Source: Candidatus Aenigmatarchaeota archaeon (GTDB taxonomy: Archaea > Aenigmatarchaeota > Aenigmatarchaeia > QMZP01 > QMZT01). From it: a stretch of 64,000 nucleotides of DNA. Positions 3,470 to 60,515 of the stretch are shown in pieces. The position numbers and the translations under genes are program-made. The DNA lies in contig JAPLVC010000001.1 of the NCBI GenBank assembly GCA_026397315.1, positions 128,001 to 192,000 on the forward strand, read 5' to 3'. Within the stretch, counting starts at the first letter, position 1. Each line of letters starts with the position of its first letter. Below the pieces are notes generated by a model. It saw nothing but the letters and a program-made list of their open reading frames with translations, ran no database searches and was not told the origin of the DNA.

Positions 3470-3618
3470 TCAATTGAAAATTATTTATCTGGATCTCAAT
3501 TTCGAAAAACCGCTATATACTCGGTGCGTGCTCAGAAGAAAACGTATCGGTACTGGCGGTTAGTGAATGAAAATGTTTAAACATAGTAATTTATATCCCA
3601 TTCCAAATTCTCAAATAT

Positions 3619-24108: not shown

Positions 24109-24323
24109 GTTACTCCCTTTAAGTGATTATAGCGAGATAAACGTTAATATATCTTATAGTTTACTCATTTATAAAGATTTGTATGGTTCAGTGTATACTA
24201 CTCCATGGCTTTCTGTTTGCATGATATCGGTTTTGCGTGTTACGCCTCAGGAGTGTCTTATTATTAGTCAAAGTATTTATAAGCGCAGGTTAATATTACT
24301 AAATTAAGTTTTGAGGTCTCTTT

Positions 24324-24713
24324 ATGAGCGAAAGGGTAGCAACAGTGAAAGACTTGAAGCCAGGTTCGTATGTCATGATAGATGACGAGCCCTGCAGAGT
24401 TCTTAAGATATCCACATCAAAACCGGGCAAGCACGGCGCTACGAAGGCGCGAGTCGAGGCGGTCGGTGTGTTCGACGAGAAGAAGCGCACGCTGATGAAG
24501 CCCACGTCCGCTGGATGCAACGTGCCGATAATCCTCAAGAAGGGAGCGCAGGTCATTTCCATATCAGGCAACATGGCCCAGCTCATGAACCTCGAGGATT
24601 ACTCGATGTTCGACTGCGAGATTCCTGCGGATCTTAAGGACAATGTCCAGCCAGGCAAAGAAGTGGAATACTGGGAAATAGGCGACAGAAAAGTTATAAA
24701 ACAGGCCAGATAA
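24324..24713 (+). CDS. eif5a: Translation factor aIF-5A
   Basis: SKPGKHGATKAR hypusine motif. Confidence 0.97.
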   Translation: MSERVATVKDLKPGSYVMIDDEPCRVLKISTSKPGKHGATKARVEAVGVFDEKKRTLMKPTSAGCNVPIILKKGAQVISISGNMAQLMNLEDYSMFDCEIPADLKDNVQPGKEVEYWEIGDRKVIKQAR

Positions 24714-24831
24714 GGCGGAATGCCTGCAATTTTTCCCTTGTTTATTTGTAATATTATTGTTTTGCCCGTTCGTCAAGTTTAAACAAAAGTCTTATATACC
24801 CTTCGTTTTTTAATAATATCAGGTGATTTGT

Positions 24832-24906
24832 TTGCTGCTTGAAGATGAAGGCGATGAGCCGGGTGTTGGAGACGACGAAGAGACGGAAGAAGAGGAGGAT
24901 CTCTAA
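24832..24906 (+). CDS. 24-aa highly acidic micro-protein (not in ORF track)
   Basis: TTG-start MLLEDEGDEPGVGDDEETEEEEDL; GGTGA SD 5 nt upstream; AAAAGT-CTTATATA promoter at about 24785-24798. Confidence 0.55.
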   Translation: MLLEDEGDEPGVGDDEETEEEEDL

Positions 24907-24913
24907 TACCTAA

Positions 24914-30263: not shown

Positions 30264-31445
30264 ATGTATCTCACTAAAGAACAGGAGAATATGCTTAATG
30301 GCGGGCACGGCGAAGTCGTCGAAAGGCAAATGCGGCTGCTTGTGCGGCTCGGCGAAATATACAAGGCCGACAAGATGATAGACGTCGGCTCCGTGCAGGT
30401 CGCCGGCGTTTCATACAAGTCGATAGGCGACCCGGGTCTCGAGTTCCTCGAGGATATTGCTCACAAAGGAGCGAAGGTCAAGGTCCTGACTTTTTTGAAT
30501 CCCGCGGGTATGGACATGGAGAACTGGAGGGAAATAGGCTTCCCCGAAAGCTTCGCGACGATGCAGAAGAAGGTTATGGACGCGTTCGAGCAGATGGGCA
30601 TCGTCATGTCAGCGACATGCACGCCATATCTCGCCGGCAACCTGCCTCGCTTCCGCGAGCACATCGCATGGTCCGAGAGCTCGGCTGTTTCATTTTCCAA
30701 TTCAGTAATTGGTGCAAGGACGAACCGTGAAGGCGGACCGTCCGCACTGGCGGCTGCGATATGCGGCTTCACTCCGAACTACGGCCTGCACCTCGACGAG
30801 AACAGGAAGCCCCACATGCTCGTGAAAGTCGACGCGAAGCTGGAATACAACTCGGATTTCGGCGCGCTCGGCTACCACGTAGGCAAGATCGCCGGCAGCA
30901 AGATTCCTTATTTCACCGGCATAAAGAACGCGAACACCGACAATCTCAAAGCGCTCGGCGCTGCGATGGCGGCCAGCGGGGCTGTCGCTCTCTATCATGC
31001 GGAAGGTCTTACGCCAGAAGCGAGCACGATGGAAACGAAAGGCCTCGAGATCATAGAGGTCGGCGAGAAGGAGCTGAAAGAAGCGTATGCGAAACTCAAC
31101 ACGGGCAAGGACCCGGACCTCGTCGTCGTGGGATGCCCGCACGCATCGCTCAGGGAGATAATAACAATCGCGAAAAAAATCGATGGCAAGCACCTGAAAA
31201 AGCCGTTCTGGATATGCACCTCGCGCGTCATGAAGGACGCTGCGACGCGCATGGGCCTGACGGCAACGATAGAGAAAGCAGGCGGAAAAATCGTGGCTGA
31301 TACGTGCATGGTCGTCTCGCCCATCGAGGAAATGGGCTTCAAGACGACCGGAGTCGACTCTGGAAAAGCGGGAAACTATCTTCCCGGCTTCTGCAAGCAG
31401 AGCGTCGTGTTCAAGAACATAGACGATCTGATAAAATCCGGATGA
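30264..31445 (+). CDS. Aconitase X large subunit (DUF521), probably phosphomevalonate dehydratase large subunit
   Basis: GVSYKSIGD, TCTPY, WSESSAV, GARTNREG, GCPH, DTCMVVSP, SGK. Confidence 0.92.
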   Translation: MYLTKEQENMLNGGHGEVVERQMRLLVRLGEIYKADKMIDVGSVQVAGVSYKSIGDPGLEFLEDIAHKGAKVKVLTFLNPAGMDMENWREIGFPESFATMQKKVMDAFEQMGIVMSATCTPYLAGNLPRFREHIAWSESSAVSFSNSVIGARTNREGGPSALAAAICGFTPNYGLHLDENRKPHMLVKVDAKLEYNSDFGALGYHVGKIAGSKIPYFTGIKNANTDNLKALGAAMAASGAVALYHAEGLTPEASTMETKGLEIIEVGEKELKEAYAKLNTGKDPDLVVVGCPHASLREIITIAKKIDGKHLKKPFWICTSRVMKDAATRMGLTATIEKAGGKIVADTCMVVSPIEEMGFKTTGVDSGKAGNYLPGFCKQSVVFKNIDDLIKSG

Positions 31446-31494
31446 CGACTTGAATTTATGTTCAAGGTCGTCTTTCGAAGGAAATGGTGATGTC

Positions 31495-31893
31495 ATGACG
31501 AAAGAAGTTATGAAAGGAAGAAGCATTTCGCCTGGGAAAGCGGAAGGCGAAGCGATAGTTTCGAAGACGCCGCTCGGATTCTACGGCGGCATCGATGCAA
31601 AAACGGGCATCGTCATCGAGAAGGGTCATGAGCTTGAGGGAAAGAACGTCAAAGATAAGATTCTCGTTTTCCCCACAGGCAAGGGCTCGACGGTCGGCTC
31701 TTACGTCATATATGGACTGAAAAAGAACGGCGTCGCTCCCAAGGCGATAATCAACAAGGAGACGGAAACCATCGTCGCTACGGGCGTGATTCTCGCCGAC
31801 ATACCGTGCGTCGACCAGATAGACATAGAGAAGCTGAACACGGGCGACAGGCTGAAAGTCGACGCAACGAAGGGAACGGTAGAGCATGCGTGA
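31495..31893 (+). CDS. Aconitase X small swivel subunit (DUF126), probably phosphomevalonate dehydratase small subunit
   Basis: GKAEGEA, FYGGID..TG, FPTGKGSTVGSY. Confidence 0.92.
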   Translation: MTKEVMKGRSISPGKAEGEAIVSKTPLGFYGGIDAKTGIVIEKGHELEGKNVKDKILVFPTGKGSTVGSYVIYGLKKNGVAPKAIINKETETIVATGVILADIPCVDQIDIEKLNTGDRLKVDATKGTVEHA

Positions 31894-32458
31894 CGCTTCA
31901 GAAAAGGAAAGAATCATAGTCGGCATTTCAGGCAGTTCATGCGCCATCCTTGGCGTGCGCTTTCTCGAGGTCGCAAAAAAGCTCGGCTTGGAGACGCATC
32001 TCGTCATAAGCGAGACTGCTGAGAAAATCATAGAGCACGAAACCGGTCGCAAGGTCAGCGACGTCAGAAAGCTCGCGACTAAAGCTTATGGCTACCGCGA
32101 CCTTTTCGCTGCGATAGCGTCCGGCTCTTTTCAGACGAAGGGCATGGTCATAATACCGTGCAGCATGAAAACGCTAGCAGGCGTTGCCAGCGGTTATTCC
32201 GACAACCTGATGTTACGGGCGGCGGACGTTTGTCTTAAAGAACGGCGAAAGCTGGTGCTGGTCGCGCGCGAGACGCCTCTGAGCCTGATACACATCGAGA
32301 ACATGAAACGCGTTACGCTCGCTGGAGGCGTAATCCTGCCACCTGTCATGACGCTCTATGCGAAACAGAAAAGCATAGAAGACCTTACGAATCACGTAAT
32401 CGGCAAGACGCTCGACGTGCTCGGCATCGACAACAAGGTTTACAACAGGTGGAGCTAG
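31886..32458 (+). CDS. ubiX: Flavin prenyltransferase UbiX
   Basis: VGISGSS, IASGS, PCSMKTL, RAADVCLKERRKLVLVARETP. Confidence 0.95.
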   Translation: MRDASEKERIIVGISGSSCAILGVRFLEVAKKLGLETHLVISETAEKIIEHETGRKVSDVRKLATKAYGYRDLFAAIASGSFQTKGMVIIPCSMKTLAGVASGYSDNLMLRAADVCLKERRKLVLVARETPLSLIHIENMKRVTLAGGVILPPVMTLYAKQKSIEDLTNHVIGKTLDVLGIDNKVYNRWS

Positions 32459-32493
32459 AGACGCTTTTTAAGCCAAAAACGGAATTGATATTC

Positions 32494-33273
32494 ATGAAAA
32501 ACCTGATATTCGTCAAGCTTGGCGGCTCGCTGATAACCGACAAGTCGAGGCCATACACCGCAAGGCATGATGTAATCAGAAGGCTATGCAGAGAAATACA
32601 TGAAGCACGCTCGGACAAGGATTTCCCGCTGCTCGTCGGCCACGGCGGCGGCAGCTTCCCGCACGTATCCGCGAAGAAATACGAGACGCACAAAGGCGCT
32701 ATTCGCAGCGACAGCTGGGAAGGCTTCGCGAAAGTCCAGGACGACGCCGCGCGCCTGAACAGGATAGTCGTCTCGTCGCTCATGGAAGCGGACGAATACG
32801 CGGTTTCGATACAGCCGTCAGCATCGTGCTCGGCAAGGAATGATCGTATTATCAAATGGCACATGACGCCCATAGAAGTCGCGCTCTCAAAGGGTCTCAT
32901 ACCCGTGCCGCACGGCGACGTGTGCGTCGACGATGTGAAAGGATGCTGCATCATATCCACGGAAGAGATACTGGGCTTCCTAGCGAGAAAGCTCAGGCCA
33001 GAGCGCATAATCATGGCAGGCAAGACCGACGGAGTGCTGGGCCCGCTGGGAGAGACGATAAAGCGGATTGACAGGAAAAATTACGCGGAGATTATCGACT
33101 CGCTCTCCTCGTCGGACGGCGTCGCGGACGTGACCGGCGGCATGGCGCAGAAAGTGAAGATGTCGCTAGCGATGGGTTGCGAAGTCGAAATAATAAACGG
33201 CCTCAAACCAGGCGAGCTGAAAAGAGCGCTGCTCGGGGAGAGAGGATTGGGAACTATAATTAGCGGAAAATGA
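32494..33273 (+). CDS. ipk: Isopentenyl phosphate kinase
   Basis: KLGGSLITDK, HGGGSFPH, PHGDV, DVTGGM..K. Confidence 0.93.
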   Translation: MKNLIFVKLGGSLITDKSRPYTARHDVIRRLCREIHEARSDKDFPLLVGHGGGSFPHVSAKKYETHKGAIRSDSWEGFAKVQDDAARLNRIVVSSLMEADEYAVSIQPSASCSARNDRIIKWHMTPIEVALSKGLIPVPHGDVCVDDVKGCCIISTEEILGFLARKLRPERIIMAGKTDGVLGPLGETIKRIDRKNYAEIIDSLSSSDGVADVTGGMAQKVKMSLAMGCEVEIINGLKPGELKRALLGERGLGTIISGK

Positions 33274-34292
33274 TTGTTATGTCTTCTGACAAAAAATCCG
33301 TCACCAAGTCGCGCAAGGACGATCACATACGCATATGTCTCGAGAAAAACGTCGAGTTCGCGAAGTCGAACGGCTTCGACCGCGTCGAGCTGGAGCACAG
33401 CGCGCTGCCGGAGATTGAGAGAAGCGACATCGATTTGTCCACCAGATTCATGGGAAAGAAGTTCCGCTACCCGCTTTTCATAGAGGCGATAACAGGAGGA
33501 ACGGCACAGGGCGAGCGCATAAACAAGAATCTCGCTGCTGCGGCAGAAGCGCTTGGAATTGGAATGGGCGTCGGCTCGCAGCGCGCGATGTTGGAGGACG
33601 CGAAAGCTACGAGAACGTATTCTGTTCGCGACGTCGCGCCCAGCATTTTTCTTCTCGGCAACATAGGCGCGGCGCAACTGAGGAAATACGATACGTCTCG
33701 TGTGCTGGCGCTGGTCGACGCGATAAAGGCCGACGGGCTAGCGATTCATCTCAACGTCGCGCAGGAACTCGCTCAGAAAGAAGGGGATAAATCATGGAAA
33801 GGCGTTTTCGACGACATAAAGGCGCTGTGCGCCAAATCGAAAGTTCCGATAATCGCTAAAGAAACCGGCTGCGGCATTTCGGGAAAGCTGTCTGAAGCGC
33901 TCGTATCAGCGGGTGTGAAGGCGATAGACATCGCGGGCGCGGGCGGCACGTCGTGGGTCAAGGTCGACAGCCATCGGACTGACGATGATGTGAGTCACAT
34001 CGAGGAATGGGGCATCCCGACGGCGCGGGCGCTGAAGGACGTGGCTGGTTCGGTCGAAGTTCCGATAATCGCTTCCGGCGGCATACGCAACGGCGTCGAG
34101 GTCGCTAAGGCGATAGCGATGGGAGCTTCGCTGGTCGGAATGGCGCTGCCGCTGCTGAAACCAGCGACCGAGTCGTCTGAAAGCGTGAGAAAGCACCTGG
34201 AAAAAATAATTTCACAACTGGAAGACGCGATGTTCCTTGTCGGCGCGAGGAACGTGTCCGAGCTGAAGAAAGTGAAAGTACTTTACGCATGA
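33270..34292 (+). CDS. fni: Type 2 isopentenyl-diphosphate delta-isomerase
   Basis: RKDDHI, GVGSQRA, HLNVAQE, KETGCG, GAGGTSW, ASGGIR. Confidence 0.95.
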   Translation: MIVMSSDKKSVTKSRKDDHIRICLEKNVEFAKSNGFDRVELEHSALPEIERSDIDLSTRFMGKKFRYPLFIEAITGGTAQGERINKNLAAAAEALGIGMGVGSQRAMLEDAKATRTYSVRDVAPSIFLLGNIGAAQLRKYDTSRVLALVDAIKADGLAIHLNVAQELAQKEGDKSWKGVFDDIKALCAKSKVPIIAKETGCGISGKLSEALVSAGVKAIDIAGAGGTSWVKVDSHRTDDDVSHIEEWGIPTARALKDVAGSVEVPIIASGGIRNGVEVAKAIAMGASLVGMALPLLKPATESSESVRKHLEKIISQLEDAMFLVGARNVSELKKVKVLYA

Positions 34293-35100: not shown

Positions 35101-35661
35101 ATGCTGAAAGCCCAGAGCACGAAGGACGGAATAGAGAAGGGCGACGCGGAAAAAGCCATAAAGGAAAACGAGATTATCCTGTTCCTGCTGCCCAACCAGA
35201 GCTACTCCGACAAGATAAAAGTCGTCGCCGGCGCGGCCGCAAAGACCGGCCAAAGGATATGCTACGTGGCGGCTAACAAGCCTTCAGAAGTACTCTCAAA
35301 GGATTTCGACAAGAACAAGATCGATATAGCCAAGTTCTATTTCGTGGACTGTGTCACCAAAAGCCTCAAGAATAGCGAGAAAGTCGTCTACGTCTCGTCG
35401 CCTAAAGCGCTCACAGAGATAAACATAGCGCTGAAAAAGATGATAGAGTCGTCTAAAGCGGATATGACGCTTTTCGACTCGCTTTCCACGCTTCTCATAT
35501 ACGAGGACTCGCACGTCGTCATACGCTTCGTCCACTCGATAATATCGGCTTTCAGGACCATGAAGTCGAAAGGTATTCTAATATCTCTCAAGGAAGAGAC
35601 GCAGAGCGAGCTGATAAAAGATTTGAATATGTTCGTTGACAAGGTAGTAGAGTTGGGTTAG
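35101..35661 (+). CDS. Inactive KaiC/RecA-fold protein (no Walker A)
   Basis: CYV...KP, FVDCVT, LFDSLSTLLIY, MFVDKVVE; paralog of 45118-45669. Confidence 0.75.
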   Translation: MLKAQSTKDGIEKGDAEKAIKENEIILFLLPNQSYSDKIKVVAGAAAKTGQRICYVAANKPSEVLSKDFDKNKIDIAKFYFVDCVTKSLKNSEKVVYVSSPKALTEINIALKKMIESSKADMTLFDSLSTLLIYEDSHVVIRFVHSIISAFRTMKSKGILISLKEETQSELIKDLNMFVDKVVELG

Positions 35662-35675
35662 CTGCTGGTGTGTTA

Positions 35676-38600
35676 ATGGCGGTCGGGGTAAAGGGTAAAA
35701 AACAAAAGTTTAGCTGCGGGGATGCATTGCTGGAAAAAATCAGGCAATGCGCTCCCATAGTTGACGTTTTCCCCGACATAGCTTATTTTAAGGACCTGGA
35801 TCACAGGAACGTTTTCATAAACAAGGCATTCGAGAAATTTGCCGGCCGCAAAAAGAGCGATATCGAAGGTAAGCGCGACGACGAGATTCTGCCGAAGGAG
35901 CTGGCACGCCAGTGCATGAAAAGCGACGACGCCGTCAGGAACGGGAAGCCCGTGCACACCGATGAGGCGCTCACGGACAAAGACGGCAAGACTGCATTCT
36001 TCGACACCATGAAATTCCCCCTGAGGGACGGGGAAGGCCGGATAATAGGCCTCATGGGCATAAGCCGCGAAATCACCGAAAAGAAGCGCGATGAGCATGA
36101 GCTCAGGGAAAGCGAGGCTTCATACAGAGCCATAGCCGACAACATCCCGGGCATTGTTTACAGGATTCATCTCGAGGGTGAAAAAAGCTTCACGGAATTT
36201 TTCAACGAGAACGTGCAGACGCTTGCAGGTTATCCGCCGGAGAAGCTCAGTGGCGGCAGGTGCCCGATGGATCCGCTAATAGTCAGCGAAGACAGAAAAA
36301 ATGTGATAGAGACCATCGCAAATGCGATAAAGAAAGGGCAGCCGTTCAAGGTGGAATATCGCATAAAGAACAAGAAAGGCGATATCCGCTACTTCGCGGA
36401 AAGGGGCAGGCCCATATTTGACGAGAAAATGAAAGCCGAGCACATAGACGGCGTCATTTTTGACGTGACCCAGAGCAAAAAGGCCGACGACGCCTTCAGA
36501 AACGTCATGGACCAATACAAGTATCTCTATGATGAAAGCCCCGCCGTCAACATAATAGTCGGCAACAACGGCAAAATAATGGACATAAACAGGAAATCTG
36601 CGCAGGCGATAGGATACAAAAAAGAAGAACTCGTAGGCAAAAGTATTTTCGACCTGATGACTGCGTCCGATATAAAGAAAGCACTGACAGTCCTTAAAGA
36701 CAGTATCATGAACAAGTACACACCAGAGATGGAGCTGGCTATAAAATCAAAAGACGGTTCTATAAGAAGGCTGCTTCTTTCCGAAGGCGGCACGCCAATT
36801 TACGATAAAGGGAAAGCTGTCGGAGTGCTGGTCACGGGCATGGACATAACGGAACGCAAGAAAGCGGAAGAGTTGACAAGGCAAAACGAGGAAAAATACA
36901 GGAGTATAATCGAGCTGGCTCCGGATGGCATAATCTCCGTGAGCCTGAAAGGAACGGTGACAGCGTGCAATTCGGCCTTCGAAAAACTCACCGGATATTC
37001 AAAGGAGGAGATTGTAGGCAAGCATTTCACCAGTCTCCCGACCATCAACAAGAAGGACATGCCGAGCTACATAAAATTGTTCACTTCCATCATCAGGGGT
37101 AAAATTCCGGAGTCATTCAAGTTCGAATGGAAACACAAAAACGGCTCCTTGCACATGGGCGAAATCCGCGTTGGCCTGATGAAAAGCGGTAACAAAATAA
37201 CCGGAATGCAGGCATTCATAAGTGACATAACAGAAAGATTGATGGTAGAAAAAAGGGCTAAGGAGGACGAAGATAAATACAAGTTCCTGGTCGACAGTAT
37301 GCAGGAGATAGCAATTATTCTCAGCAAAACCGGAACGATACTGTTCGCCAACAGGTCTGCCCTTGAAACGCTGGGCTATACTGAAGAGGAGGTTATAGGC
37401 AAATCCATCGTTTCTTTCCTCACGAAAGGCTCGCTCAAGAAAGCCTTATATGCGCTCGCGCAGGAATTCCTCGGCAAACATCAGGAGGAGATGGAAGTCG
37501 AGGTCAAAAACAAAAAAAGCGAGATAAGGACTTTGCTGATTGCCGAGTCATCAAACCCCATTCACAAAGACGGGAAAATGATCGGGATTCTGGTGAACGC
37601 CCGCGACATCACTGAGCAGAAAAAGACCAATGAATTGCGCAGGGAAAGCGGGGAACAATTCAGAAAGCTCTTCAACGAGATGCCAGACGCCGTCATCATC
37701 CTTGACAAGAAGGGGACGTTGCTTGAAATGAGCAAAGAAGCTGAAAAGATAAGCGGCTATCCGAGGAATGAATTGATAGGCAGAAACATCTTCGCCACAC
37801 GTATCCTTGACATGAAGACGAAGGCGCTCACTATCAGAAAACTGGCCCTGCATTTTTCCGGCGAAAGTGTTCTGCCATTCGAAGTCAAAATCTACAGGAA
37901 AGATGGTGGCACCGTCCCGCTTGAAATAAAGCCGCAGATGATTGATTACATGGGAAAGGAGGCTGACCTCATAGCTCTCAGGGACCTCACCGAACGCAAG
38001 ATAGCTGAGGCTGCAGTCAGCGAGAACGAGGAAAGGTATAGGATACAGTTCGAAGAGGCGCTGGACACTATTGTAATAGCCAACGCGAAAACAGGCATAA
38101 TAGTTGACTGCAACCGCGCAGCAACACAGTTGGTCGGGAGAGACAAGTCGGAGCTTATCGGGCAGCATCAAAGAATACTCCATCCGCCAGAAGATACCAA
38201 AGGTCAGTTCAGCGAGACATTCAAAAAACACATAAGCGTTGCCAAAGGCCAACCATTGGAAGCGCGGATTATCACCAAAAGCGGGGAAATAAAGTTCGTT
38301 ACCATAAAGGCCAACCTGATTGAAATGAGGGGTGAAAAATTAATTCAGGGAATATTCAGGGACATTACCGAATGGAAAAGAGTGGAAAACGAGTTGAGAA
38401 AGAGTGATGAACGCTTCAGGCAGATCACCGAAAATGCTTACGAGTGGGTATGGGAAGTTGACACCAACGGTGTGTATACCTATTCGAACACCATAATTGA
38501 AAGGATACTTGGCTACACATCTGATGAGCTTGTTGGTAAGGTACATTTTTACGATTTATTTGCTCCCGATGTGAAAGAGCAGTTAAAGAAAGCGGCCCTT

Positions 38601-39293
38601 GAAACCTTCGCCAAAAAACAACCTATCAGGGGGTTTATAAACCAGAACCTGCACAAGAACGGCAATATGATCATACTTGAAACGAATTGTGCGCCGATCC
38701 TTGATGAAAAAGGCCGCCTCTTGGGCTACCGTGGCGCTGATACGGACATCACCGAACGCAAAAAGACGGAAGATATTATCAAAGAAAGCGAAAGCAGATA
38801 CAAGCTGATGGCCGAGCAAACAGGGCAGGTAATTTATGATTATGAGATTGCATCCGGCGCCATTAAATGGTCCGGGGCGATAATGAATATCACCGGTTAC
38901 ACGCCAGAAGGGTTGCAAAAAATGGGTATAAAAGAATGGGGGGAATCAATCCATCCGGATGATTCCAAGAATGTCTCGGAACTCCTAGACAAAGCAATTA
39001 AGCAATGTACGAAATTCGACAGTGAATACAGATTCATGCGTAAGGATGGCAGTTACGTGTACGTCGAGGATAGGGGCATCGTGCTAAAAGATGCGAAAGG
39101 TAAGCCATACCGCATGCTCGGTACCATGAAAGACATTACTTACAGGAAAAAGGCGGATGATGAAATAAAAAATAGGACAGAGGAACTCGAGCGCTTCAAC
39201 CGTCTCGCCGTCGGCAGGGAGTTGAAAATGATCGAGCTTAAAAACAGGATTGAGGATCTGGAAAAAAAGCTCAGGGAAAATAAGGATGCATGA
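35676..39293 (+). CDS. Cytoplasmic sensor with nine PAS/PAC domains, no catalytic output, C-terminal GRELKM helix
   Basis: Nine repeats ending in DIT/DVT/DLT/EIT-type motifs; ends ELERFNRLAVGRELKMIELK. Confidence 0.9.
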   Translation: MAVGVKGKKQKFSCGDALLEKIRQCAPIVDVFPDIAYFKDLDHRNVFINKAFEKFAGRKKSDIEGKRDDEILPKELARQCMKSDDAVRNGKPVHTDEALTDKDGKTAFFDTMKFPLRDGEGRIIGLMGISREITEKKRDEHELRESEASYRAIADNIPGIVYRIHLEGEKSFTEFFNENVQTLAGYPPEKLSGGRCPMDPLIVSEDRKNVIETIANAIKKGQPFKVEYRIKNKKGDIRYFAERGRPIFDEKMKAEHIDGVIFDVTQSKKADDAFRNVMDQYKYLYDESPAVNIIVGNNGKIMDINRKSAQAIGYKKEELVGKSIFDLMTASDIKKALTVLKDSIMNKYTPEMELAIKSKDGSIRRLLLSEGGTPIYDKGKAVGVLVTGMDITERKKAEELTRQNEEKYRSIIELAPDGIISVSLKGTVTACNSAFEKLTGYSKEEIVGKHFTSLPTINKKDMPSYIKLFTSIIRGKIPESFKFEWKHKNGSLHMGEIRVGLMKSGNKITGMQAFISDITERLMVEKRAKEDEDKYKFLVDSMQEIAIILSKTGTILFANRSALETLGYTEEEVIGKSIVSFLTKGSLKKALYALAQEFLGKHQEEMEVEVKNKKSEIRTLLIAESSNPIHKDGKMIGILVNARDITEQKKTNELRRESGEQFRKLFNEMPDAVIILDKKGTLLEMSKEAEKISGYPRNELIGRNIFATRILDMKTKALTIRKLALHFSGESVLPFEVKIYRKDGGTVPLEIKPQMIDYMGKEADLIALRDLTERKIAEAAVSENEERYRIQFEEALDTIVIANAKTGIIVDCNRAATQLVGRDKSELIGQHQRILHPPEDTKGQFSETFKKHISVAKGQPLEARIITKSGEIKFVTIKANLIEMRGEKLIQGIFRDITEWKRVENELRKSDERFRQITENAYEWVWEVDTNGVYTYSNTIIERILGYTSDELVGKVHFYDLFAPDVKEQLKKAALETFAKKQPIRGFINQNLHKNGNMIILETNCAPILDEKGRLLGYRGADTDITERKKTEDIIKESESRYKLMAEQTGQVIYDYEIASGAIKWSGAIMNITGYTPEGLQKMGIKEWGESIHPDDSKNVSELLDKAIKQCTKFDSEYRFMRKDGSYVYVEDRGIVLKDAKGKPYRMLGTMKDITYRKKADDEIKNRTEELERFNRLAVGRELKMIELKNRIEDLEKKLRENKDA

Positions 39294-39296
39294 ATA

Positions 39297-41054
39297 ATGT
39301 TAAACTTTTACTCGCTGCTGCCGTTTTCGGCGTTGCTGACAAACCTGGTTTTCGGGATATTCATACTCTACATAGACCCGAAGAGCAGGCTCAACAGGCT
39401 ATACAGCCTTTTCACGCTTTCCTTTGCCTTCTGGGCCTTGGGCGATTTCATGGTTTTCATGGCATACGACCAGGGAAGCTCGCTTTTCTGGGCAAAAGCC
39501 GCCTCGGTCGGCTCTACACTTTCTGCAGCTTTCGCCATAAACTTCTTCGTGCTTCTGACGAAGAACAGGCTGGCAAACAGCAAGCTCATGCTGCTTTTTT
39601 ACGTGCCTGCGGCGGCGTTCTCTTTGCTATCGCTCGGCACCGACCTTATAACAAAGGGTACGAAGCCCGTTCCGTGGGGCCTGTTGCAGTTAAGGGGACC
39701 GCTTTACATCCCGATGACCCTTTTCATTGTGGCGTGCATGGTGGCGAGCATAATCCTTTGCTACATGTATTATCGCCGCACGGAAAAACAGGATGAAAGA
39801 AAACAGATGAGGATCATGATCATTGGCACGTCAATACCGCTTTTCGGCGGCATCGTGACGCAGATTGTCCCGATCATAATGGGCTTCGAAATGATTCCGC
39901 TGTCTTCGACGCTCTCGATAATCATAGTGGTGGCCGCCGCGCTCGGCGTCATGCGCTACAGGCTCATGACACCCGTGTCTTTCAGCATCCGCAAGAAGAT
40001 AATAGTTTCAATCATGGTGGCGAGCATAATACCGCTCCTCATGCTGAGTCACGTTTCTATATCGAGCATCAGCTCTCTCGGTTTGATGCACACCGAGCAC
40101 ATGGACACCATAAGCAACTTTTCCATAAACGAAACTGTTCATTCGCTGGAAGCGCTTGGCGCCGAAATGGTAAAGCAGAAGGCATTCGACGTCTCGAACC
40201 AGATAGGTATTTTCATCAGTAAGTCGCCCCAGATGACCGAAGAACAGATGAAAAACAACGCTGAGCTTGCATCGATAGCTGTCCAGCGCGTCGACAAAAC
40301 TGGTTACACTGCCGTGCATAACAACAAAGGCATCAACCTGTTCCATTCCAATCCAAATATCATAGGCTCAGATCTTACGAAGCTGAATTTGACGGGCTTC
40401 AGGGAGATAGTGCAAAAAAGCCTGAGTCAGGAGGCGTATGGCTATTACGACTGGAAGGAAAGCGACGGCAGCATAAGGCAAAAATACATGCACTGCGTTC
40501 CCGTAAAGATGACAGGCTTGGTAGTGTGCGCAACAACATACATAGACGAGTTTTCCGAGCCTTCGGATGCTGCGATGAAAAGACTGAACAATGCCACAAA
40601 GCAACACATACTTGATGAAAAAGATGTCCAGGCCGCGCTCCTCGTCACCATAGGCGCGATGCTAATCCCGATGGTGGCGATAATGATAATTATTACGTAC
40701 CTGCTCACCGGAGCCCTTTCCAAACCCATACTAAAGCTCACAGATGCGATGAAAAAGATAAGCGGTGGCAACCTCGACGTGAAAATAGAAGTGAAAGAAG
40801 GCGACGAGATAGGCCAGCTTGCTTCATCTTTCAAACAGATGCTTGAGGAACTGAAAACTTCAAAAATCAAAATAGAAGAGCATAGCAAGACGCTGGAGAA
40901 AGATGTCGAGGATAGGACTAGTCAGCTCGAGGATAAAGTGAGCGAGCTGGAGAGGTTCAGCAAGCTGGTCATAGGCAGGGAGCTTAAGATGGTGGATCTC
41001 AAGAAAAAATTAAAGGAAGTTGAGGATAAGCTGAAGAGCAAGGAGAATAAATAA
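39297..41054 (+). CDS. Membrane sensor (HisKA_7TM-like + Cache-like + HAMP) without kinase domain, C-terminal GRELKM helix
   Basis: N-terminal multi-TM region; KTGYTAV...HSNP...GYYDW Cache-like region; HAMP KPI..L......GNLD...DEIGQLA. Confidence 0.85.
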   Translation: MLNFYSLLPFSALLTNLVFGIFILYIDPKSRLNRLYSLFTLSFAFWALGDFMVFMAYDQGSSLFWAKAASVGSTLSAAFAINFFVLLTKNRLANSKLMLLFYVPAAAFSLLSLGTDLITKGTKPVPWGLLQLRGPLYIPMTLFIVACMVASIILCYMYYRRTEKQDERKQMRIMIIGTSIPLFGGIVTQIVPIIMGFEMIPLSSTLSIIIVVAAALGVMRYRLMTPVSFSIRKKIIVSIMVASIIPLLMLSHVSISSISSLGLMHTEHMDTISNFSINETVHSLEALGAEMVKQKAFDVSNQIGIFISKSPQMTEEQMKNNAELASIAVQRVDKTGYTAVHNNKGINLFHSNPNIIGSDLTKLNLTGFREIVQKSLSQEAYGYYDWKESDGSIRQKYMHCVPVKMTGLVVCATTYIDEFSEPSDAAMKRLNNATKQHILDEKDVQAALLVTIGAMLIPMVAIMIIITYLLTGALSKPILKLTDAMKKISGGNLDVKIEVKEGDEIGQLASSFKQMLEELKTSKIKIEEHSKTLEKDVEDRTSQLEDKVSELERFSKLVIGRELKMVDLKKKLKEVEDKLKSKENK

Positions 41055-41076
41055 TAATTTTATGGAGGGTGATAAT

Positions 41077-41856
41077 ATGAATAAATTTTTGATTTCGGCG
41101 CTGTGCATTTTGCTTGTCATCGGATTTTCGGGATGCACGCAGACAAACTTGAATGGAAGCGGCTCATCTCTGTTAAAATTGAAAGAGCCGGGCAAACTTA
41201 TAATAGGCACGAATTTGCCGTACGAACCAATGGAGTTCTACGACGCTTCGGGAAATATAGTTGGCATTGACGCGGATGTTGCAAAAGAAATCGCTTCGCA
41301 ACTTGGGCTGGAGCTGGAAATAAGAAATGTTGACTGGGACAAGCTGTTCGAACAAGTGAAATCAGGCGATCTGGATATTATAATTTCATCTATATCTATA
41401 ACAAATGAAAGGCAAAAGGAATATCTTTTTAGTGCGCCATATTTCAACGCAGGCCAGGTGGTTATCACCAAAAAGGGCAATACCGACATCAAATTCCCGG
41501 AGGACCTCAAAAACAAGAAAGTGAGCGCCCAGAAAGATACAACAAGCGCTGAAGAGGCTGCAAAATACTCGAACAGCTCTATAGTGTACGAAAACTCAGA
41601 TTACGAAAAAACTGTCGCTGACCTTAAAAATGGAAATTTAGACGCAATTGTCATGGATTATGTTGCCGGCATCATGCTGGTGAAGAACGACCAGTCACTT
41701 AAAATAGCTGTGGAACCTTTCACCCAGGAGTTTTACGGCATAGCCACGCAGCTAGGCAACACGGCACTCATGAATGAAGTGAGCAGAGTGCTCAGAAATA
41801 TGAAGGAGACAGGGAAGCTGGAAGAAATAAAAAATAAGTGGCTTAGCGAGACGTGA
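41077..41856 (+). CDS. Polar amino-acid solute-binding lipoprotein (family 3), no permease nearby
   Basis: FSGC lipobox, YEPMEF, GIDAD, FSAPYF, GKLEEIKNKWL. Confidence 0.9.
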   Translation: MNKFLISALCILLVIGFSGCTQTNLNGSGSSLLKLKEPGKLIIGTNLPYEPMEFYDASGNIVGIDADVAKEIASQLGLELEIRNVDWDKLFEQVKSGDLDIIISSISITNERQKEYLFSAPYFNAGQVVITKKGNTDIKFPEDLKNKKVSAQKDTTSAEEAAKYSNSSIVYENSDYEKTVADLKNGNLDAIVMDYVAGIMLVKNDQSLKIAVEPFTQEFYGIATQLGNTALMNEVSRVLRNMKETGKLEEIKNKWLSET

Positions 41857-41911
41857 AATGTTTGGATCTGGCAGTGCTTTGAAAAATAACAAAGATAAGT
41901 GGCTCGGGTAA

Positions 41912-43603
41912 ATGAAAATAAACATATCGCTGAAGATAATCGGGGTAGTTTTTTTGCTTTTTTTACTCGTTTTTATAATCATCGCTTACAACAACATCAT
42001 AATCTATGAGAACGATGTGACAGGCTACTTCATAGAAAAAGCTAAAGCTATTGCATATTCCATCGAAGCTGGCATAAAGAACAGGGAAACCCTGAGCAAA
42101 AAGGATGAGATGTTGTCCAGCATCCATAAAATCATGTGGCTTAATTCTGAAATTGTAGATATAACATACGTCACAAGTAGCGAAAGCGGGCTGGTAAATT
42201 ACATATCAAACGACCCCGAAAGAAACGGTGTCGAGCCCGAACCTGAAAATTATGAAGCGTTCGAAAAGGATATCGTGATAAGCAAGATTTACACTCGGGG
42301 ATATTCAGCCATGCTTAAAATCGTATCACCTCTTCACATCTCTGGGCAGGTTGTCGGCACCGTGCAGTTGGATTTTACCATGGAAAGCATTAATGGTAAA
42401 ATAACAGCTGTCAGAAACTCCCTCATCGTGGGTTATCTTATGTTAATGATCACTTCCGCTGTTCTGTTGTTCTTTTTGCTGAGAATACTAGTCATAAAAC
42501 CTATTCAAAAAATAAACAAAGGCGTTGAATCTGTATCGTCTGGCAAGCTGGACTACAGCGTCGATATAAAATCCAATGACGAGATAGGCAATTTATCAAA
42601 AGCTTTCAATAGGATGGTAAACGATCTTAAGCAATCCAACGACCAGATAAAAAGGCACGAGCATGATCTCGAAGAAAAGGTAAGCGAAAGGACCAAGGAT
42701 CTTGACTCCAAAGTGGGCGAGCTCACGGATACGAAGACGGCGATACTCAACATGATGGAGGACATGGACGATGCCAACAGGAACCTTATGACGATGCAGG
42801 ACGAGCTCAGGAACAGCCTCAAGGAACTGAAGGAAAGCGACATCAAGAAGGACGAATTCATATCGATAGCGGCGCACGAGCTGAAGACGCCACTGACATC
42901 GATACACGGTTTCTCTCAGCTGATGCAGAACAAGGACGTCATAGAAAACAAGGAAAGGAGGGGAAAATATCTGGGTATAATGGAGCATGAGACCACGCGC
43001 CTGGCAAAGCTCGTGACCGACATCCTCGACCTTTCAAGAATTGATCTTGGAACGCTTAAAATGGCGATAGAAGAGGTCGATGTTTCGTCGCTTATAGACG
43101 ACGTGAGCAAGGAACTCAACATACAGATGAAGTCCCATGGTCTCGAGTCTGAATACATCATAGAAAAGGACCTGAAAATGATGACGGACATGGAGAGGCT
43201 TACACAGATAGTGATAAATCTCATAAACAACTCCATCAAATACACGCCGAAAGGCAAGATAACCGTGAAGGCATGGAAAGACGGCGGCGACTTCCATTTC
43301 ATGGTCAAGGACACGGGTATAGGCATACCGAAGGACAAGCAGCACCACATCTTCCAGAGGTTCTATCAGGTCGATTCTTCATACACCAGGTCAGCTGGAG
43401 GCGTCGGCCTCGGCCTTTCTCTATGCAAGGAGTTCGTGAACGTCCTCGGGGGCAAGATATGGTTCGTGAGCCAGGAAGGCAAGGGAAGCGAGTTCCACGT
43501 CACTCTGCCCATGAAGAAAACTGTCGCGCCCGGTATATTTGACGTGAAAGCAAAGGCGGCAGAAATCCTCAAGAAGTCTGAAAAAATCACGAAAGGAAAA
43601 TAA
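41912..43603 (+). CDS. Sensor histidine kinase (2 TM, HAMP, HisKA, HATPase)
   Basis: AHELKTPL H-box, NLINNSIKY, DTGIGI, F.RFYQ, GVGLGL. Confidence 0.96.
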   Translation: MKINISLKIIGVVFLLFLLVFIIIAYNNIIIYENDVTGYFIEKAKAIAYSIEAGIKNRETLSKKDEMLSSIHKIMWLNSEIVDITYVTSSESGLVNYISNDPERNGVEPEPENYEAFEKDIVISKIYTRGYSAMLKIVSPLHISGQVVGTVQLDFTMESINGKITAVRNSLIVGYLMLMITSAVLLFFLLRILVIKPIQKINKGVESVSSGKLDYSVDIKSNDEIGNLSKAFNRMVNDLKQSNDQIKRHEHDLEEKVSERTKDLDSKVGELTDTKTAILNMMEDMDDANRNLMTMQDELRNSLKELKESDIKKDEFISIAAHELKTPLTSIHGFSQLMQNKDVIENKERRGKYLGIMEHETTRLAKLVTDILDLSRIDLGTLKMAIEEVDVSSLIDDVSKELNIQMKSHGLESEYIIEKDLKMMTDMERLTQIVINLINNSIKYTPKGKITVKAWKDGGDFHFMVKDTGIGIPKDKQHHIFQRFYQVDSSYTRSAGGVGLGLSLCKEFVNVLGGKIWFVSQEGKGSEFHVTLPMKKTVAPGIFDVKAKAAEILKKSEKITKGK

Positions 43604-43616
43604 GGAAAAAGACCGG

Positions 43617-44435
43617 TTATTTCTTATCTTGTTTTTTACCCATCGCGCTTGCGCCAGCCTGTTGCGCGGCTTCAAAAAGCCTGGTAATGACCACTCTGTT
43701 ATATATGAAACCGGTAGCCATCAGGATGTAGTCCATGTTCCAAAGTATGTCTATAATGTTTCCGGTCTCATAACTGCCGAGAATATAAGAATATATTATA
43801 TCAGCGCACGTGCTCAGCATCAACGCGAAGAATATTACAGACCATGGCTTGATGAATTTGCTGTCCCACAGGTAAGTCAGGCCGAAAGCCATTGAAATAA
43901 GCAGGAACATGTCTTCTGCAATGTATCCGGCCGAAGCCGCTTTCTCCAACAAAGGAGTTTCAGTATCTGCTGCAAATGGTGCAATAAGAAATATTGAAAC
44001 CACCGCTATCGCTATCACAACGGACAGCAATATCCACTTTTTTCTGCCGAGCTTCGATGACGAAAGCTTGCATATGAAAAACATGCCGGCGATGAAAAAC
44101 GCGTAGCCCGCATACCAGAAAATATCGGCTATCGACACGACTGGCTTGAAGTCAGTAAATATCTCCAGAACTCCCCATGTTATTTCACCCAGAGTCCAGA
44201 ATGCCGTCCCTACCGCGATGAATAACATCGCTTTTCCCTGCTCGCTCTTGAAGCCATGTATCTTGAAGGCGAAAAAGCCGGCCAGCGTGGCCATTATCGC
44301 CAGCGCGGCCACCCACACGTCTGCGATGACGTAAAATGAGTCGCCCAACGGCCGGAAGGCGAAAAGCGCCAGATTTATTACCAACAGAGCAACGAGAATC
44401 GAAAGCCCGAGATATTTCATATTTTCTAATTTCAT
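43617..44435 (-). CDS. Stand-alone multi-TM protein resembling membrane sensor input domains
   Basis: About 8 hydrophobic helices, W.LGE..W and SIADIFW..GY motifs; no cytoplasmic output. Confidence 0.7.
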   Translation of the reverse strand: MKLENMKYLGLSILVALLVINLALFAFRPLGDSFYVIADVWVAALAIMATLAGFFAFKIHGFKSEQGKAMLFIAVGTAFWTLGEITWGVLEIFTDFKPVVSIADIFWYAGYAFFIAGMFFICKLSSSKLGRKKWILLSVVIAIAVVSIFLIAPFAADTETPLLEKAASAGYIAEDMFLLISMAFGLTYLWDSKFIKPWSVIFFALMLSTCADIIYSYILGSYETGNIIDILWNMDYILMATGFIYNRVVITRLFEAAQQAGASAMGKKQDKK

Positions 44436-44680: not shown

Positions 44681-45061
44681 TCATCCTATCATTTTCTTGA
44701 CCCTTTTGACGAGGTCGTCGTTGTCAAAGGGCTTGTTTATGTAGTCAAGCACTTTCATTTCCTTGAGGATGTCCTTGCCAGCTTCGGAGAACTTGGCCAC
44801 GGTTAGAAAAGCGATTTTCAGGCCCCTGGTCTTCGGGTCTTTCCTTATCTTGTCGCACACCTCGCGGCCGCTCATGCCAGGCATCATCATGTCCAGAAGT
44901 ATGAGATCCGGTGACATTGTTTTGAGCTTATTCAGGCAATCCTCGCCATCCGATGCTGTGGCCACGTCGTATCCCTCATGCTCGAGCACGGCAGAGACAA
45001 GCTCCCTAAGGCTTTCCTCGTCGTCGACTACGAGAATCTTCTTTTTTGTCATATTTAACAT
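44681..45061 (-). CDS. Stand-alone response regulator receiver domain
   Basis: ILVVDD, LLDMMMPGMSG, FLT, KPF. Confidence 0.95.
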   Translation of the reverse strand: MLNMTKKKILVVDDEESLRELVSAVLEHEGYDVATASDGEDCLNKLKTMSPDLILLDMMMPGMSGREVCDKIRKDPKTRGLKIAFLTVAKFSEAGKDILKEMKVLDYINKPFDNDDLVKRVKKMIG

Positions 45062-45117: not shown

Positions 45118-45669
45118 TCACCCGAAATTTATCGTCTTGTCCGCGAACATGCCCAGATCCTTCATGAGCTTATCGTTCTCCTCCTGCGGTATGGTGTCCT
45201 GCTTCAGGAGGATGAAGAGCTTTTTGACGTTCTCTTTCGTATCGTCCGACATGATGCTGTGGGTGAAGCTCACGACCGACGACGTCTGCTGGTAAATGAG
45301 GAGCGTGGATATCGTGTCGAAAAGTATGACGCTGCAGCTCTTTTTCTCGACCGCTTCCTTTATCGCCACCCGTATGGCGGCAAGGTCGCGTGGTGAACGC
45401 ACGAAAAAGCAGTCCTTGCACGGCTCGGGGTCGTGGTAATGCGACGTGAGCACGTCTATGAAGAAGAAATCCGACAGATTGAACCCCTGCTTCGAAAGCT
45501 CCTCTTTGACGTCTTTGACGGGCTTGCTGAGGCACACGTAGCATATTTTCGTCTTTGTCTTCTCCACGCCATTGATTATCTCTTCCATGCGAGCTGTGTA
45601 TTCGCTCTCCTCCATCATGATGATGAGGAACCTGTTGCTAGTGATTTCCTTGATGAGGTCCAGTACCAT
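45118..45669 (-). CDS. Inactive KaiC/RecA-fold protein (no Walker A)
   Basis: CYVCLSKP, FFIDVLT, ILFDTISTLLIY, MFADKTI; paralog of 35101-35661. Confidence 0.75.
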   Translation of the reverse strand: MVLDLIKEITSNRFLIIMMEESEYTARMEEIINGVEKTKTKICYVCLSKPVKDVKEELSKQGFNLSDFFFIDVLTSHYHDPEPCKDCFFVRSPRDLAAIRVAIKEAVEKKSCSVILFDTISTLLIYQQTSSVVSFTHSIMSDDTKENVKKLFILLKQDTIPQEENDKLMKDLGMFADKTINFG

Positions 45670-45764
45670 TATTGTAATTAGCGGCATAACTTATAAATTT
45701 AATTTTAAAATGTTTAAACATAATAAATGTTTTATAAGCAAAAGCGATAATAATATATAAACGG

Positions 45765-60000: not shown

Positions 60001-60105
60001 GTAAAATCACAAATGTGAAGTATACTATGAAGAGATAAGTTTTTAAACGTGTTTACCGCCCGGATCGTCCAAAAAACATGGTTTCAGTATTAAAAAAAAG
60101 AAGTA

Positions 60106-60299
60106 TCCCCCGGGTGAGATTTCCATACGCGAAAGCTGCTGGTTTTCGCTTAAGCCTTTTCAACAAAAGGCTTATTTTGAACTCACAACCTATCGGTTTC
60201 TGAAGCGACTGCGAATGACCAACACACTCGTAAAACCGAGTTTAAGTCACCGTGCGAGAGTCTACAGCCGATCGCTCCACCAGATTGAGCTACCGAGGG
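60106..60299 (-). tRNA. tRNA-Tyr(GTA) with two introns: 64 nt at 37/38 (60198-60261) and 56 nt at 59/60 (60120-60175)
   Basis: C1:G72 and A73 archaeal Tyr identity; ATCGG-CT-GTA-G|A-CCGAT; BHB helices CTGT/TCAG (3 of 4 pairs) and TTCA/TGGA. Confidence 0.92.
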
Positions 60300-60515
60300 A
60301 TGCACGCAATACGCGTAATATTATATAAACGTCTCCAGAATTTAAATATTGGCCAGACCACGGTCATTATCAGTCGGAGTATAAGAACGGTGGAATCCTT
60401 TATCTAAAAATGTTCTTTTTTAGTTTTTTGTTGTCTTTTTGAATAGCACTTGAACCATTAATTGCATTTTGTGTTTCGTGCGCCCATCTATCAGGTTATC
60501 AGATGCTTTATGATA

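What the first reader, a model, noticed from the sequence alone, without database searches (positions are those of the whole stretch)
35676..43603. Candidate 'fan-in' signalling system: output-less sensors ending in a GRELKM helix that aligns with an acidic helix in the only kinase
Seen: two adjacent sensors with unrelated inputs (9xPAS; 7TM+Cache+HAMP) have no kinase, cyclase or DNA-binding domain, yet end almost identically: ELERFNRLAVGRELKMIELK and ELERFSKLVIGRELKMVDLK. The downstream kinase aligns without gaps to the second sensor after HAMP: LEKDVEDRTSQLEDKVSELERFSKLVIGRELKM versus LEEKVSERTKDLDSKVGELTDTKTAILNMMEDM. A basic GRELKM segment therefore sits where the kinase has acidic LNMMEDMDD, just before HisKA. 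Known: the helix after HAMP or PAS normally carries the signal to a catalytic domain. Inference: the two motifs are a docking pair that lets kinase-less sensors control one kinase in trans. I know no characterised function for this tail.
Basis: partly seen in the sequence, partly recalled or inferred. Interest (0 to 1): 0.8.

Follow-up and report, generated by a model that had tools for sequence, protein, structure and literature searches.

The report
Docking helices linking kinase-less sensors to kinase
Two sensor proteins with no enzyme part end in a strongly conserved helix, and the genome's only histidine kinase carries a second conserved helix that is almost always encoded beside such sensors in bacteria and archaea, so the two helices are probably an undescribed way of attaching separate sensors to one kinase.

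Summary
P0001 (9 PAS domains) and P0002 (7TM-Cache-HAMP) have no output domain. Both end in ELERFxxLxxGRELKM plus exactly 20 residues.

This tail is not local. A profile of it hits 7,242 protein clusters, nearly always at the extreme C-terminus of PAS, HAMP, Cache or GAF proteins without an output domain.

The kinase's "acidic helix" (TAILNMMEDMDD) is a second widespread motif, T-x-x-A-x-L-N-[IM]-[LM]-E-D, here called the socket.
- Of kinases directly downstream of a tail gene, 27 of 28 carry it.
- Of 60 metagenome loci picked by the socket alone, all 60 have a tail gene just upstream.
- In 201 genomes of the window's phylum, 35 have both motifs, 4 the tail only, 2 the socket only and 160 neither. 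There were 79 tails for 35 sockets, always one socket per genome.
- No fused form was seen.

The tail Gly, the socket Asn and the phospho-acceptor His share one heptad position.

This genome has one histidine kinase and one receiver, both in this locus.

Functional coupling is well supported. Direct helix-to-helix docking is inferred, not shown. Neither motif was found in Pfam, NCBIfam, the PDB or the searchable literature.

This scan has reported the same tail and socket at least 12 times before on other DNA.

The parts
35670..39293 (+). P0001: soluble sensor with 9 PAS domains, no output domain, C-terminal tail (GTG 35670; the ATG at 35676 is the likelier start)
   Evidence: Database representative P0007 is 1205 aa, which fits the ATG start.
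39171..39290 (+). Tail of P0001: NRTEELERFNRLAVGRELKMIELKNRIEDLEKKLRENKDA
   Evidence: PAS DIT to G spacing is 27 residues, in the family's heptad phase.
39297..41054 (+). P0002: membrane sensor HisKA_7TM + Cache + HAMP + S-helix (DRT), no output domain, C-terminal tail
   Evidence: The AF2 model gives one continuous helix 504-584 from HAMP to the C-terminus.
40932..41051 (+). Tail of P0002: DKVSELERFSKLVIGRELKMVDLKKKLKEVEDKLKSKENK
   Evidence: Spacing from the ERT arginine to G is 20 residues (counted on the sequence).
41062..41856 (+). P0003: secreted or lipoprotein-type solute-binding protein (SBP_bac_3), probably an extracellular input to the kinase
   Evidence: It is conserved between sensor and kinase in L001 and L002.
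41912..43603 (+). P0004: the genome's only histidine kinase. TM, mixed alpha/beta extracytoplasmic domain, TM, HAMP, S-helix (ERT), socket, HisKA (His322), HATPase_c
42716..42811 (+). Socket helix of P0004: GELTDTKTAILNMMEDMDDANRNLMTMQDELR. Asn280 lies 42 residues (6 heptads) before His322.
   Evidence: In the AF2 monomer model it is the only low-confidence break (275-286) in the HAMP-to-DHp helix.
43617..44435 (-). P0158: 272-aa multi-pass membrane protein with no family match, conserved between kinase and receiver in relatives
44681..45061 (-). The genome's only response-regulator receiver: 126 aa, stand-alone REC with its acidic pocket, Asp, Thr and Lys present
35101..35661 (+). Small KaiC-like (DUF7504/DUF835-like) protein flanking the locus upstream
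   Evidence: iKaiC/DUF835 domains are known archaeal receiver-linked output domains (PMC5847659).
45118..45687 (-). Second small KaiC-like (DUF835-like) protein, next to the receiver gene

Best explanation
The locus encodes a split, many-to-one two-component system. P0001 and P0002 are complete sensors, not broken kinases. Their output element is the C-terminal tail helix (ELERF-x4-VGRELKM-x-ELK...). This helix continues the PAS or HAMP output coiled coil in heptad phase and ends where a fused kinase would carry its phospho-acceptor His.

The only kinase, P0004, carries the partner element, the socket (T-x-x-A-x-L-N-M-M-E-D). It lies in its own signalling helix exactly six heptads before His322.

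Inferred mechanism: a tail dimer docks side by side on the socket segment of the kinase dimer, forming a hetero four-helix bundle. This changes the packing of a marginally stable coiled coil and so gates autophosphorylation. The kinase would thereby integrate its own periplasmic domain and HAMP (probably with the solute-binding protein P0003) with the PAS and Cache sensors. It would pass the result to the single stand-alone receiver.

Shown: the motifs, their positions, their phase, and their co-location and co-occurrence. Inferred: physical contact, the geometry, and the sign of the effect.
For: 1. Tail family. There are 7,242 clusters. The tail is C-terminal in about 95% of the best 150. Of 113 scanned, the carriers are PAS (83), HAMP (24), Cache, PocR, GAF and CBS proteins, with no output family among the 25 commonest.

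2. Co-location starting from the tail. Of kinase reading frames within 150 bp downstream of a tail gene, 27 of 28 carry the socket. Elsewhere in the same loci it is 9 of 21 (Fisher p 3e-5).

3. Reciprocal test starting from the socket. All 60 metagenome loci with enough upstream sequence have a tail gene ending less than 600 bp upstream.

4. Own phylum, 201 genomes. Both 35, tail only 4, socket only 2, neither 160. Every genome has exactly one socket, against 79 tails in all. In 30 of 35, the socket lies 1.0-3.3 kb downstream of a tail on the same strand.

5. Specificity. In five other genomes with 6-69 HATPase_c matches, the socket occurs in a single reading frame, the one beside the tail gene.

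6. Heptad phase. Socket Asn to His is a multiple of 7 in 95 of 108 kinases. Socket repeats are spaced 21 or 42 residues. PAS DIT to tail Gly is 6 mod 7 in 80 of 89, and ERT Arg to tail Gly in 46 of 52. Ordinary fused kinases put their His at the same phase (13 of 18 and 7 of 8).

7. Conserved residues outside the a/d core on both helices, for example tail Leu at f and Gly at c, and socket Leu at b and e and Asn at c. Net charges are opposite.

8. Translational coupling in bacteria. The kinase is in the -1 frame in 64 of 81 junctions, and 48 have ATGA or GTGA overlaps.

9. This genome has one kinase and one receiver, both in this locus.
Against: - No binding, structural or activity evidence exists. 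AlphaFold-Multimer was not available.
- Co-location and co-occurrence show functional linkage, not contact between these two helices.
- Genomes in the tallies are related, so the p-values overstate. The 60 metagenome loci come from a narrow clade with nearly identical tails.
- Motif detection in the loci used regular expressions I chose myself.
- The number of socket repeats (1-7) does not track the number of tail genes. Four larger genomes have one tail and several repeats.
- One 93%-complete relative (G012) has three tails and no detectable socket.
- One adjacent kinase (L072) has no socket.
- Tail-socket covariation could not be separated from phylogeny.
Confidence: 0.6

Rival explanations
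1. The sensors and the kinase are functionally coupled, but not through tail-socket contact. Each motif is a lineage signature of its own homodimeric signalling coiled coil, left over from an ancient split of a sensor kinase. The actual contact runs through other surfaces (TM, HAMP, PAS) or a third protein.
For: Both motifs lie in ordinary signalling-helix positions and phases. P0002 and P0004 share homologous TM-HAMP-S-helix regions that could themselves associate. Profile comparison shows no relation or obvious complementarity code between the motifs. Socket repeat number does not match tail number.
Against: Sensors with unrelated architectures (soluble 9xPAS, membrane Cache-HAMP, PocR, GAF, CBS) share only the tail. 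Many bacterial socket kinases consist of nothing but socket repeats plus DHp-CA. The two helices are therefore the only elements common to all pairs. Conserved non-core residues argue for a partner surface.
Confidence: 0.25
2. The tail is only a homodimerisation cap (zipper) for stand-alone sensors that signal to targets other than the kinase. The gene adjacency is ordinary operon clustering of signalling genes.
For: The tail has a clean a/d heptad pattern, and AF2 models it as one continuous helix. Half of the tails in the phylum are unlinked to the kinase.
Against: A generic zipper would not be conserved nearly residue for residue across bacteria and archaea. It would not have an Arg at a core d position. 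It would not co-occur genome by genome with one particular kinase motif.
Confidence: 0.08
3. The sensors are recently truncated kinases, or sensor and kinase are joined by stop-codon read-through or frameshifting into one polypeptide.
For: The tail Gly sits at the heptad position of a fused kinase's His, and ELE-x-F resembles the start of DHp helix 1. In many bacteria the kinase gene starts at the tail gene's stop codon.
Against: The tail is the C-terminus in about 95% of the best 150 of 7,242 clusters. No reading frame in the two sets of 80 loci examined carries both motifs. Only 9 of 81 junctions are in the same frame. In the window an SBP gene separates sensors from kinase, and the intergenic gaps are 3 and 7 nt.
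Confidence: 0.02

Closest known systems
Signalling helix (S-helix) of Anantharaman, Balaji and Aravind 2006 (PMC1592074)
   Same: It is a parallel coiled-coil segment that carries the signal out of PAS or HAMP. It has a polar Arg at a core d position. P0002 and P0004 each contain a true ERT S-helix just upstream, and the tail Arg lies 14, 21 or 28 residues after the ERT Arg, at the same heptad position.
   Different: The S-helix lies between two domains of one protein and has the ERT signature. The tail is a chain terminus with a different, much more conserved signature, and it pairs with a second motif on another protein.
HisKA (DHp) helix 1 with the H-box
   Same: The tail begins ELE-x-F like many DHp helices. 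Its Gly occupies the heptad position and the spacing class (from PAS DIT or S-helix ERT) at which fused kinases carry the phospho-acceptor His.
   Different: It has no His, no second helix (13-29 residues follow in most of the best hits), no CA domain and no Pfam HisKA match.
Accessory-sensor ('three-component') systems: H-NOX/HqsK and NosP/VpsS (PMC6769237), QseG/QseE (PMC6075780, PMC12691602), HbpS/SenS (PMC4991794)
   Same: A separate sensor protein encoded beside a histidine kinase controls it in trans. Several inputs can converge on one kinase.
   Different: Each of those pairs uses its own globular interface and is lineage-specific. Here one short helix pair recurs on thousands of unrelated sensor architectures in both domains of life, and several different sensors carry the same connector.

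Membership tests
S-helix (signalling helix) | ERT signature in the central heptad of a coiled coil of about 40 residues | tested here: not met
   The tail itself has no ERT. Its signature is ELERF..L.VGRELKM. ERT (DRT, ERT, NRT) lies upstream as a separate element in P0002, P0004 and P0001.
S-helix (signalling helix) | Lies between a sensor domain and a downstream output domain of the same protein | tested here: not met
   The tail ends the protein, with 13-29 residues after GRELKM in about 95% of the best 150 hits.
HisKA / DHp domain | Phospho-acceptor His in an H-box | tested here: not met
   Gly occupies the in-phase position and there is no His in the tail.
HisKA / DHp domain | Helical hairpin followed by a HATPase_c domain; Pfam HisKA match | tested here: not met
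   There is no Pfam or NCBIfam match over the tail and nothing follows it.
Accessory-sensor three-component systems | Stand-alone sensor encoded next to the kinase it controls | tested here: met
   Window gene order; 27 of 28 and 60 of 60 adjacency; 30 of 35 in the phylum.
Accessory-sensor three-component systems | Direct binding of sensor to kinase, with a change in autophosphorylation | not testable with these tools
   This needs biochemistry or multimer modelling.
Canonical two-component system | Kinase with H-box and CA domain, plus a cognate receiver | tested here: met
   P0004 has HisKA + HATPase_c. The single REC lies at 44681-45061. That this receiver is the kinase's partner is inferred from it being the only one in the genome.
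Truncated or pseudogenised sensor kinase | Remnant kinase sequence downstream, or intact fused orthologues in relatives | tested here: not met
   The gaps of 3 and 7 nt run straight to the next genes. No fused form was seen in the two sets of 80 loci examined. Relatives L001, L002 and L017 keep the split arrangement.

The most novel reading that the evidence does not exclude
Tail and socket form a universal, modular connector code. Any sensor ending in the tail, which is a His-less analogue of DHp helix 1, can complete a hetero four-helix bundle with the socket segment of a kinase dimer. That would let cells wire several interchangeable sensors (up to 8 here) into one kinase. Bacterial kinases with 2-7 socket repeats would then be multi-site docking rails.
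Probability: 0.4. Interest if true: 0.9.

Novelty: new variant of a known kind. Interest (0 to 1): 0.8.

Why it matters
Thousands of PAS, HAMP and Cache proteins are annotated only as "PAS domain S-box protein" or "hypothetical", and they look like sensors with no output. If the tail is their output and the socket its receptor, three things follow.
- These proteins acquire a predicted partner and pathway.
- Kinases that appear to have no sensor acquire their inputs.
- Two short motifs become usable for predicting sensor-kinase wiring from sequence, and possibly for engineering modular sensors.

The window is a favourable minimal case for testing. The genome is about 1 Mb and has one kinase, one receiver and two tailed sensors, all in a single locus.

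Tried and rejected
- **Word-indexed homology search** on the tail region gave only 3 hits. The exhaustive profile search was needed.
- **Literature.** Searches for the motif strings (GRELKM, ELERFN, LNILED and others) and for descriptive terms found nothing relevant. The library holds only open-access papers.
- **Solved structures.** The PDB sequence search found neither motif.
- **ESM Atlas.** Neighbours are all "hypothetical", "PAS domain-containing protein" or "putative histidine kinase" clusters.
- **Family libraries.** Pfam and NCBIfam cover only DHp-CA in the bacterial socket kinases. The best NCBIfam hit (LvrA) is explained by the kinase core.
- **Common origin of the two motifs.** Profile comparison of tail against socket shows no relation, so this is not supported.
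- **Equal distance from the membrane as a general rule.** Rejected: ERT-to-motif distances differ by whole heptads between partners.
- **Read-through fusion.** Rejected on reading frames.
- **Tail-socket covariation.** The pairs were only inspected by eye. They sort by lineage, so no claim is made.
- **AF2 monomer models** confirm helicity but cannot test docking.
The contexts of the GREEKM-type tail variants (P0022, P0146, P0025) were therefore not examined.
A narrower bacterial alignment was used instead.
Full report
**What is in the window**

Four co-directional, tightly spaced genes occupy 35670-43603.
- P0001 has nine PAS domains (1207 aa from GTG 35670; the ATG at 35676 is the likelier start).
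- P0002 is HisKA_7TM + Cache + HAMP (585 aa).
- P0003 is a family-3 solute-binding protein.
- P0004 is TM, extracytoplasmic domain, TM, HAMP, HisKA, HATPase_c.

The gaps between them are 3, 7 and 55 nt. P0001 and P0002 have no output domain. Both end in ELERFxxLxxGRELKMxxLK followed by exactly 20 residues. Nothing in Pfam or NCBIfam matches that tail.

**The genome**

The held genome is 1.05 Mb in 7 contigs and 91% complete. Its relatives are Aenigmatarchaeota. It has only these two tails and one socket. It has one histidine kinase, P0004; the other HATPase_c matches are GyrB and topoisomerase VI B. It has one receiver domain, a 126-aa stand-alone REC at 44681-45061 on the minus strand. The genome's whole two-component repertoire is therefore in this locus.

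**The tail is a large family**

A profile of the two 40-residue tails (A1) found 7,242 cluster representatives at E<=1e-3, out of 1.84 billion. Among the best 150, the consensus is ELERFNKLAVGRELKMIELKKRIKELEEKL. The protein ends 13-29 residues after GRELKM in about 95% of them.

Of 113 full-length hits scanned, 83 carry PAS and 24 carry HAMP. Others carry Cache, PocR, GAF or CBS. No kinase, cyclase or DNA-binding family appears among the 25 commonest families.

Genome loci with the tail come from DPANN archaea, Methanosarcinales, Patescibacteria, Ignavibacteria, Chloroflexota, Acidobacteriota, Bacteroidota, Myxococcota, Actinomycetota and others. A few proteins carry two tails (P0008, P0033, P0023).

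**The kinase helix is a second family**

I looked at kinases next to tail genes in 80 genome loci. Their regions upstream of the H-box share T-[QK]-[RKT]-A-[VLI]-L-N-[IM]-[LM]-E-D.
- In archaeal and CPR (Patescibacteria) kinases the motif occurs once, after HAMP and S-helix, as in P0004 (TDTKTAILNMMEDMDD).
- In many bacteria it occurs as 2-7 exact 21-residue repeats at the N-terminus of otherwise sensor-less kinases.
- It also precedes HisKA_2-type kinases (L028, L029, L058, L075).

No Pfam or NCBIfam model covers it. No PDB chain has either motif.

**Linkage tests**

1. Starting from the tail. Of kinase reading frames starting within 150 bp downstream of a tail gene, 27 of 28 carry the socket. 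For kinases elsewhere in the same loci it is 9 of 21, and several of those 9 are scoring artefacts.
2. Starting from the socket. I took 80 metagenome loci chosen only by the pattern LNILED[FI][DE]. All 60 with at least 400 bp upstream have a tail-bearing reading frame ending less than 600 bp upstream. None is fused. These loci are a narrow clade, so they do not count as 60 independent events.
3. Genome-wide in the window's phylum, 201 genomes. The tail is in 39 and the socket in 37. Both occur in 35, tail only in 4, socket only in 2, neither in 160.
   - Two of the tail-only hits are weak or at a contig edge. The two socket-only hits lie on contigs of 3 kb and 7.5 kb.
   - Every genome with a socket has exactly one, while tails number 1-8 (79 in total).
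   - In 30 of 35 genomes the socket lies 1.0-3.3 kb downstream of a tail on the same strand. Of the 79 tails, 39 are unlinked to it.
   - The Fisher p-value of 3e-32 is inflated by relatedness. Even so, states match genome by genome within families that are mixed for presence.
4. Specificity. Five genomes from five phyla have 6-69 HATPase_c matches each. In each, the socket occurs in one reading frame only, the one beside the tail gene. These genomes were chosen from loci where I had already seen adjacency. The test therefore addresses whether sockets occur elsewhere in a genome, not adjacency itself.
5. A sample of 151 Acidobacteriota had three tails. One had a strong socket, one had a divergent adjacent socket, and one lay at a contig end.

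**Exceptions**
- G012 (93% complete) has three tails and no detectable socket.
- In L072 the adjacent kinase has no socket.

**Anatomy and phase**

- The distance from the Asn of the last socket to the phospho-acceptor His is a multiple of 7 in 95 of 108 HisKA-type kinases. In P0004 it is 42.
- Socket repeats are spaced 21 residues (230 cases) or 42 residues (24 cases).
- The distance from the PAS DIT motif to the tail Gly is 27, 34 or 41 in 80 of 89 proteins.
- The distance from the S-helix ERT Arg to the tail Gly is 13, 20 or 27 in 46 of 52.
- Ordinary fused kinases in the same loci place their His at the same phase: DIT to His is 6 mod 7 in 13 of 18, and ERT Arg to His in 7 of 8.

The tail Gly, the socket Asn and the DHp His therefore share one heptad position.

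Anchoring on the published assignment of the ERT Arg to a d position (PMC1592074) gives the following.
- The tail Arg is at d and the Gly at c.
- Many strongly conserved residues on both helices fall outside the a/d core. Examples are the tail Leu at f, and the socket Leu at b and e with Asn at c.
- The socket has polar residues (Glu, Thr) at two of its three d positions per repeat.

This fits an exposed docking surface on a marginally stable coiled coil, but it is an inference.

The mean net charge is about +1.8 for the tail after the Gly and -2.2 per socket repeat.

AF2 monomer models give one continuous helix 504-584 for P0002. In P0004 there are helices 224-278 and 286-338. The only low-confidence break (275-286) falls on the socket core. 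Monomer models of dimeric coiled coils are weak evidence.

P0002 residues 454-581 align without a gap to P0004 residues 174-301. That stretch runs from the last TM helix through HAMP and the S-helix. In this pair the tail and the socket therefore lie at the same distance from the membrane. Across other pairs the distances differ by whole heptads. Only the phase is general.

**Gene junctions**

In bacteria the kinase frame is -1 relative to the tail gene in 64 of 81 distinct junctions. In 48 of these an ATG or GTG overlaps a TGA stop. This is the usual sign of translational coupling between subunits. It also argues against read-through fusion, since only 9 of 81 are in the same frame.

**Surroundings**

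The following order is conserved in Aenigmatarchaeota and Woesearchaeota loci:
1. small KaiC-like protein;
2. tailed sensor(s);
3. solute-binding protein (not always present);
4. socket kinase;
5. a 7TM protein without family (not always present);
6. stand-alone REC;
7. small KaiC-like protein.

Inactivated KaiC and DUF835 domains are known archaeal receiver-associated output domains (PMC5847659). The output of this system may therefore run from the REC to these proteins. That is an inference.

**Verdict**

Functional coupling of tailed sensors to the socket kinase is well supported (about 0.9). Direct helix-to-helix docking is the most economical mechanism, because the two helices are the only elements common to all pairs, but it is unproven (about 0.6).

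The closest known concepts are the S-helix, DHp helix 1 and accessory-sensor three-component systems. The tail fails the defining features of the first two.

I found no description of either motif in Pfam, NCBIfam, the PDB, the ESM Atlas names or the searchable literature.

Earlier agents of this scan reported the same tail and socket on at least 12 other genomes. I treated those notes as leads and re-tested the claims independently.

Noticed in passing
window 35101-35661 (+) and 45118-45687 (-): Two small KaiC-like/DUF835-like proteins bracket the signalling locus. The bracket is conserved in Aenigmatarchaeota and Woesearchaeota relatives (L001, L002, L003, L012, L017, L036, L069). They may be the output partners of the stand-alone receiver.
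   Followed up: partly
window 43617-44435 (-): A 272-aa multi-pass membrane protein (P0158) with no Pfam match lies between kinase and receiver. It is conserved at that position in L001, L002 and L003.
   Followed up: partly
whole genome G000: This 91%-complete 1.05-Mb DPANN genome appears to have a single histidine kinase and a single receiver domain, so the locus is its entire two-component repertoire.
   Followed up: yes
L029:10105-11190, L058:10062-11249, L028:11254-12465, L075:260-1819: Socket repeats also precede HisKA_2-type kinases (H-box EIHHRVKNN). The socket is therefore independent of the DHp subfamily.
   Followed up: partly
P0008, P0033, P0023 (database proteins): Some proteins carry two tails. 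P0008 and P0033 carry them in tandem after a membrane anchor, and P0023 has one internal and one terminal.
   Followed up: no
G012 (L163, L164, L165): A 93%-complete relative has three tail-bearing proteins but no detectable socket kinase. It may be a true exception or an assembly gap.
   Followed up: partly
bacterial loci L061-L160, tail-stop/kinase-start junctions: The kinase start codon overlaps the tail gene's TGA stop (ATGA or GTGA) in 48 of 81 distinct junctions, which suggests translational coupling.
   Followed up: yes
window 30264-34292 (+): Genes for aconitase X (AcnX), an amino-acid-kinase-family protein and an FMN-dependent dehydrogenase lie upstream. I read these as the archaeal-type mevalonate pathway (phosphomevalonate dehydratase, isopentenyl phosphate kinase, type-2 IPP isomerase), which fits an archaeal origin.
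   Followed up: no
window 2001-4000, 24001-26000, 60001-62000: There are three low-GC stretches (0.38-0.40, against about 0.50 for the window).
   Followed up: no
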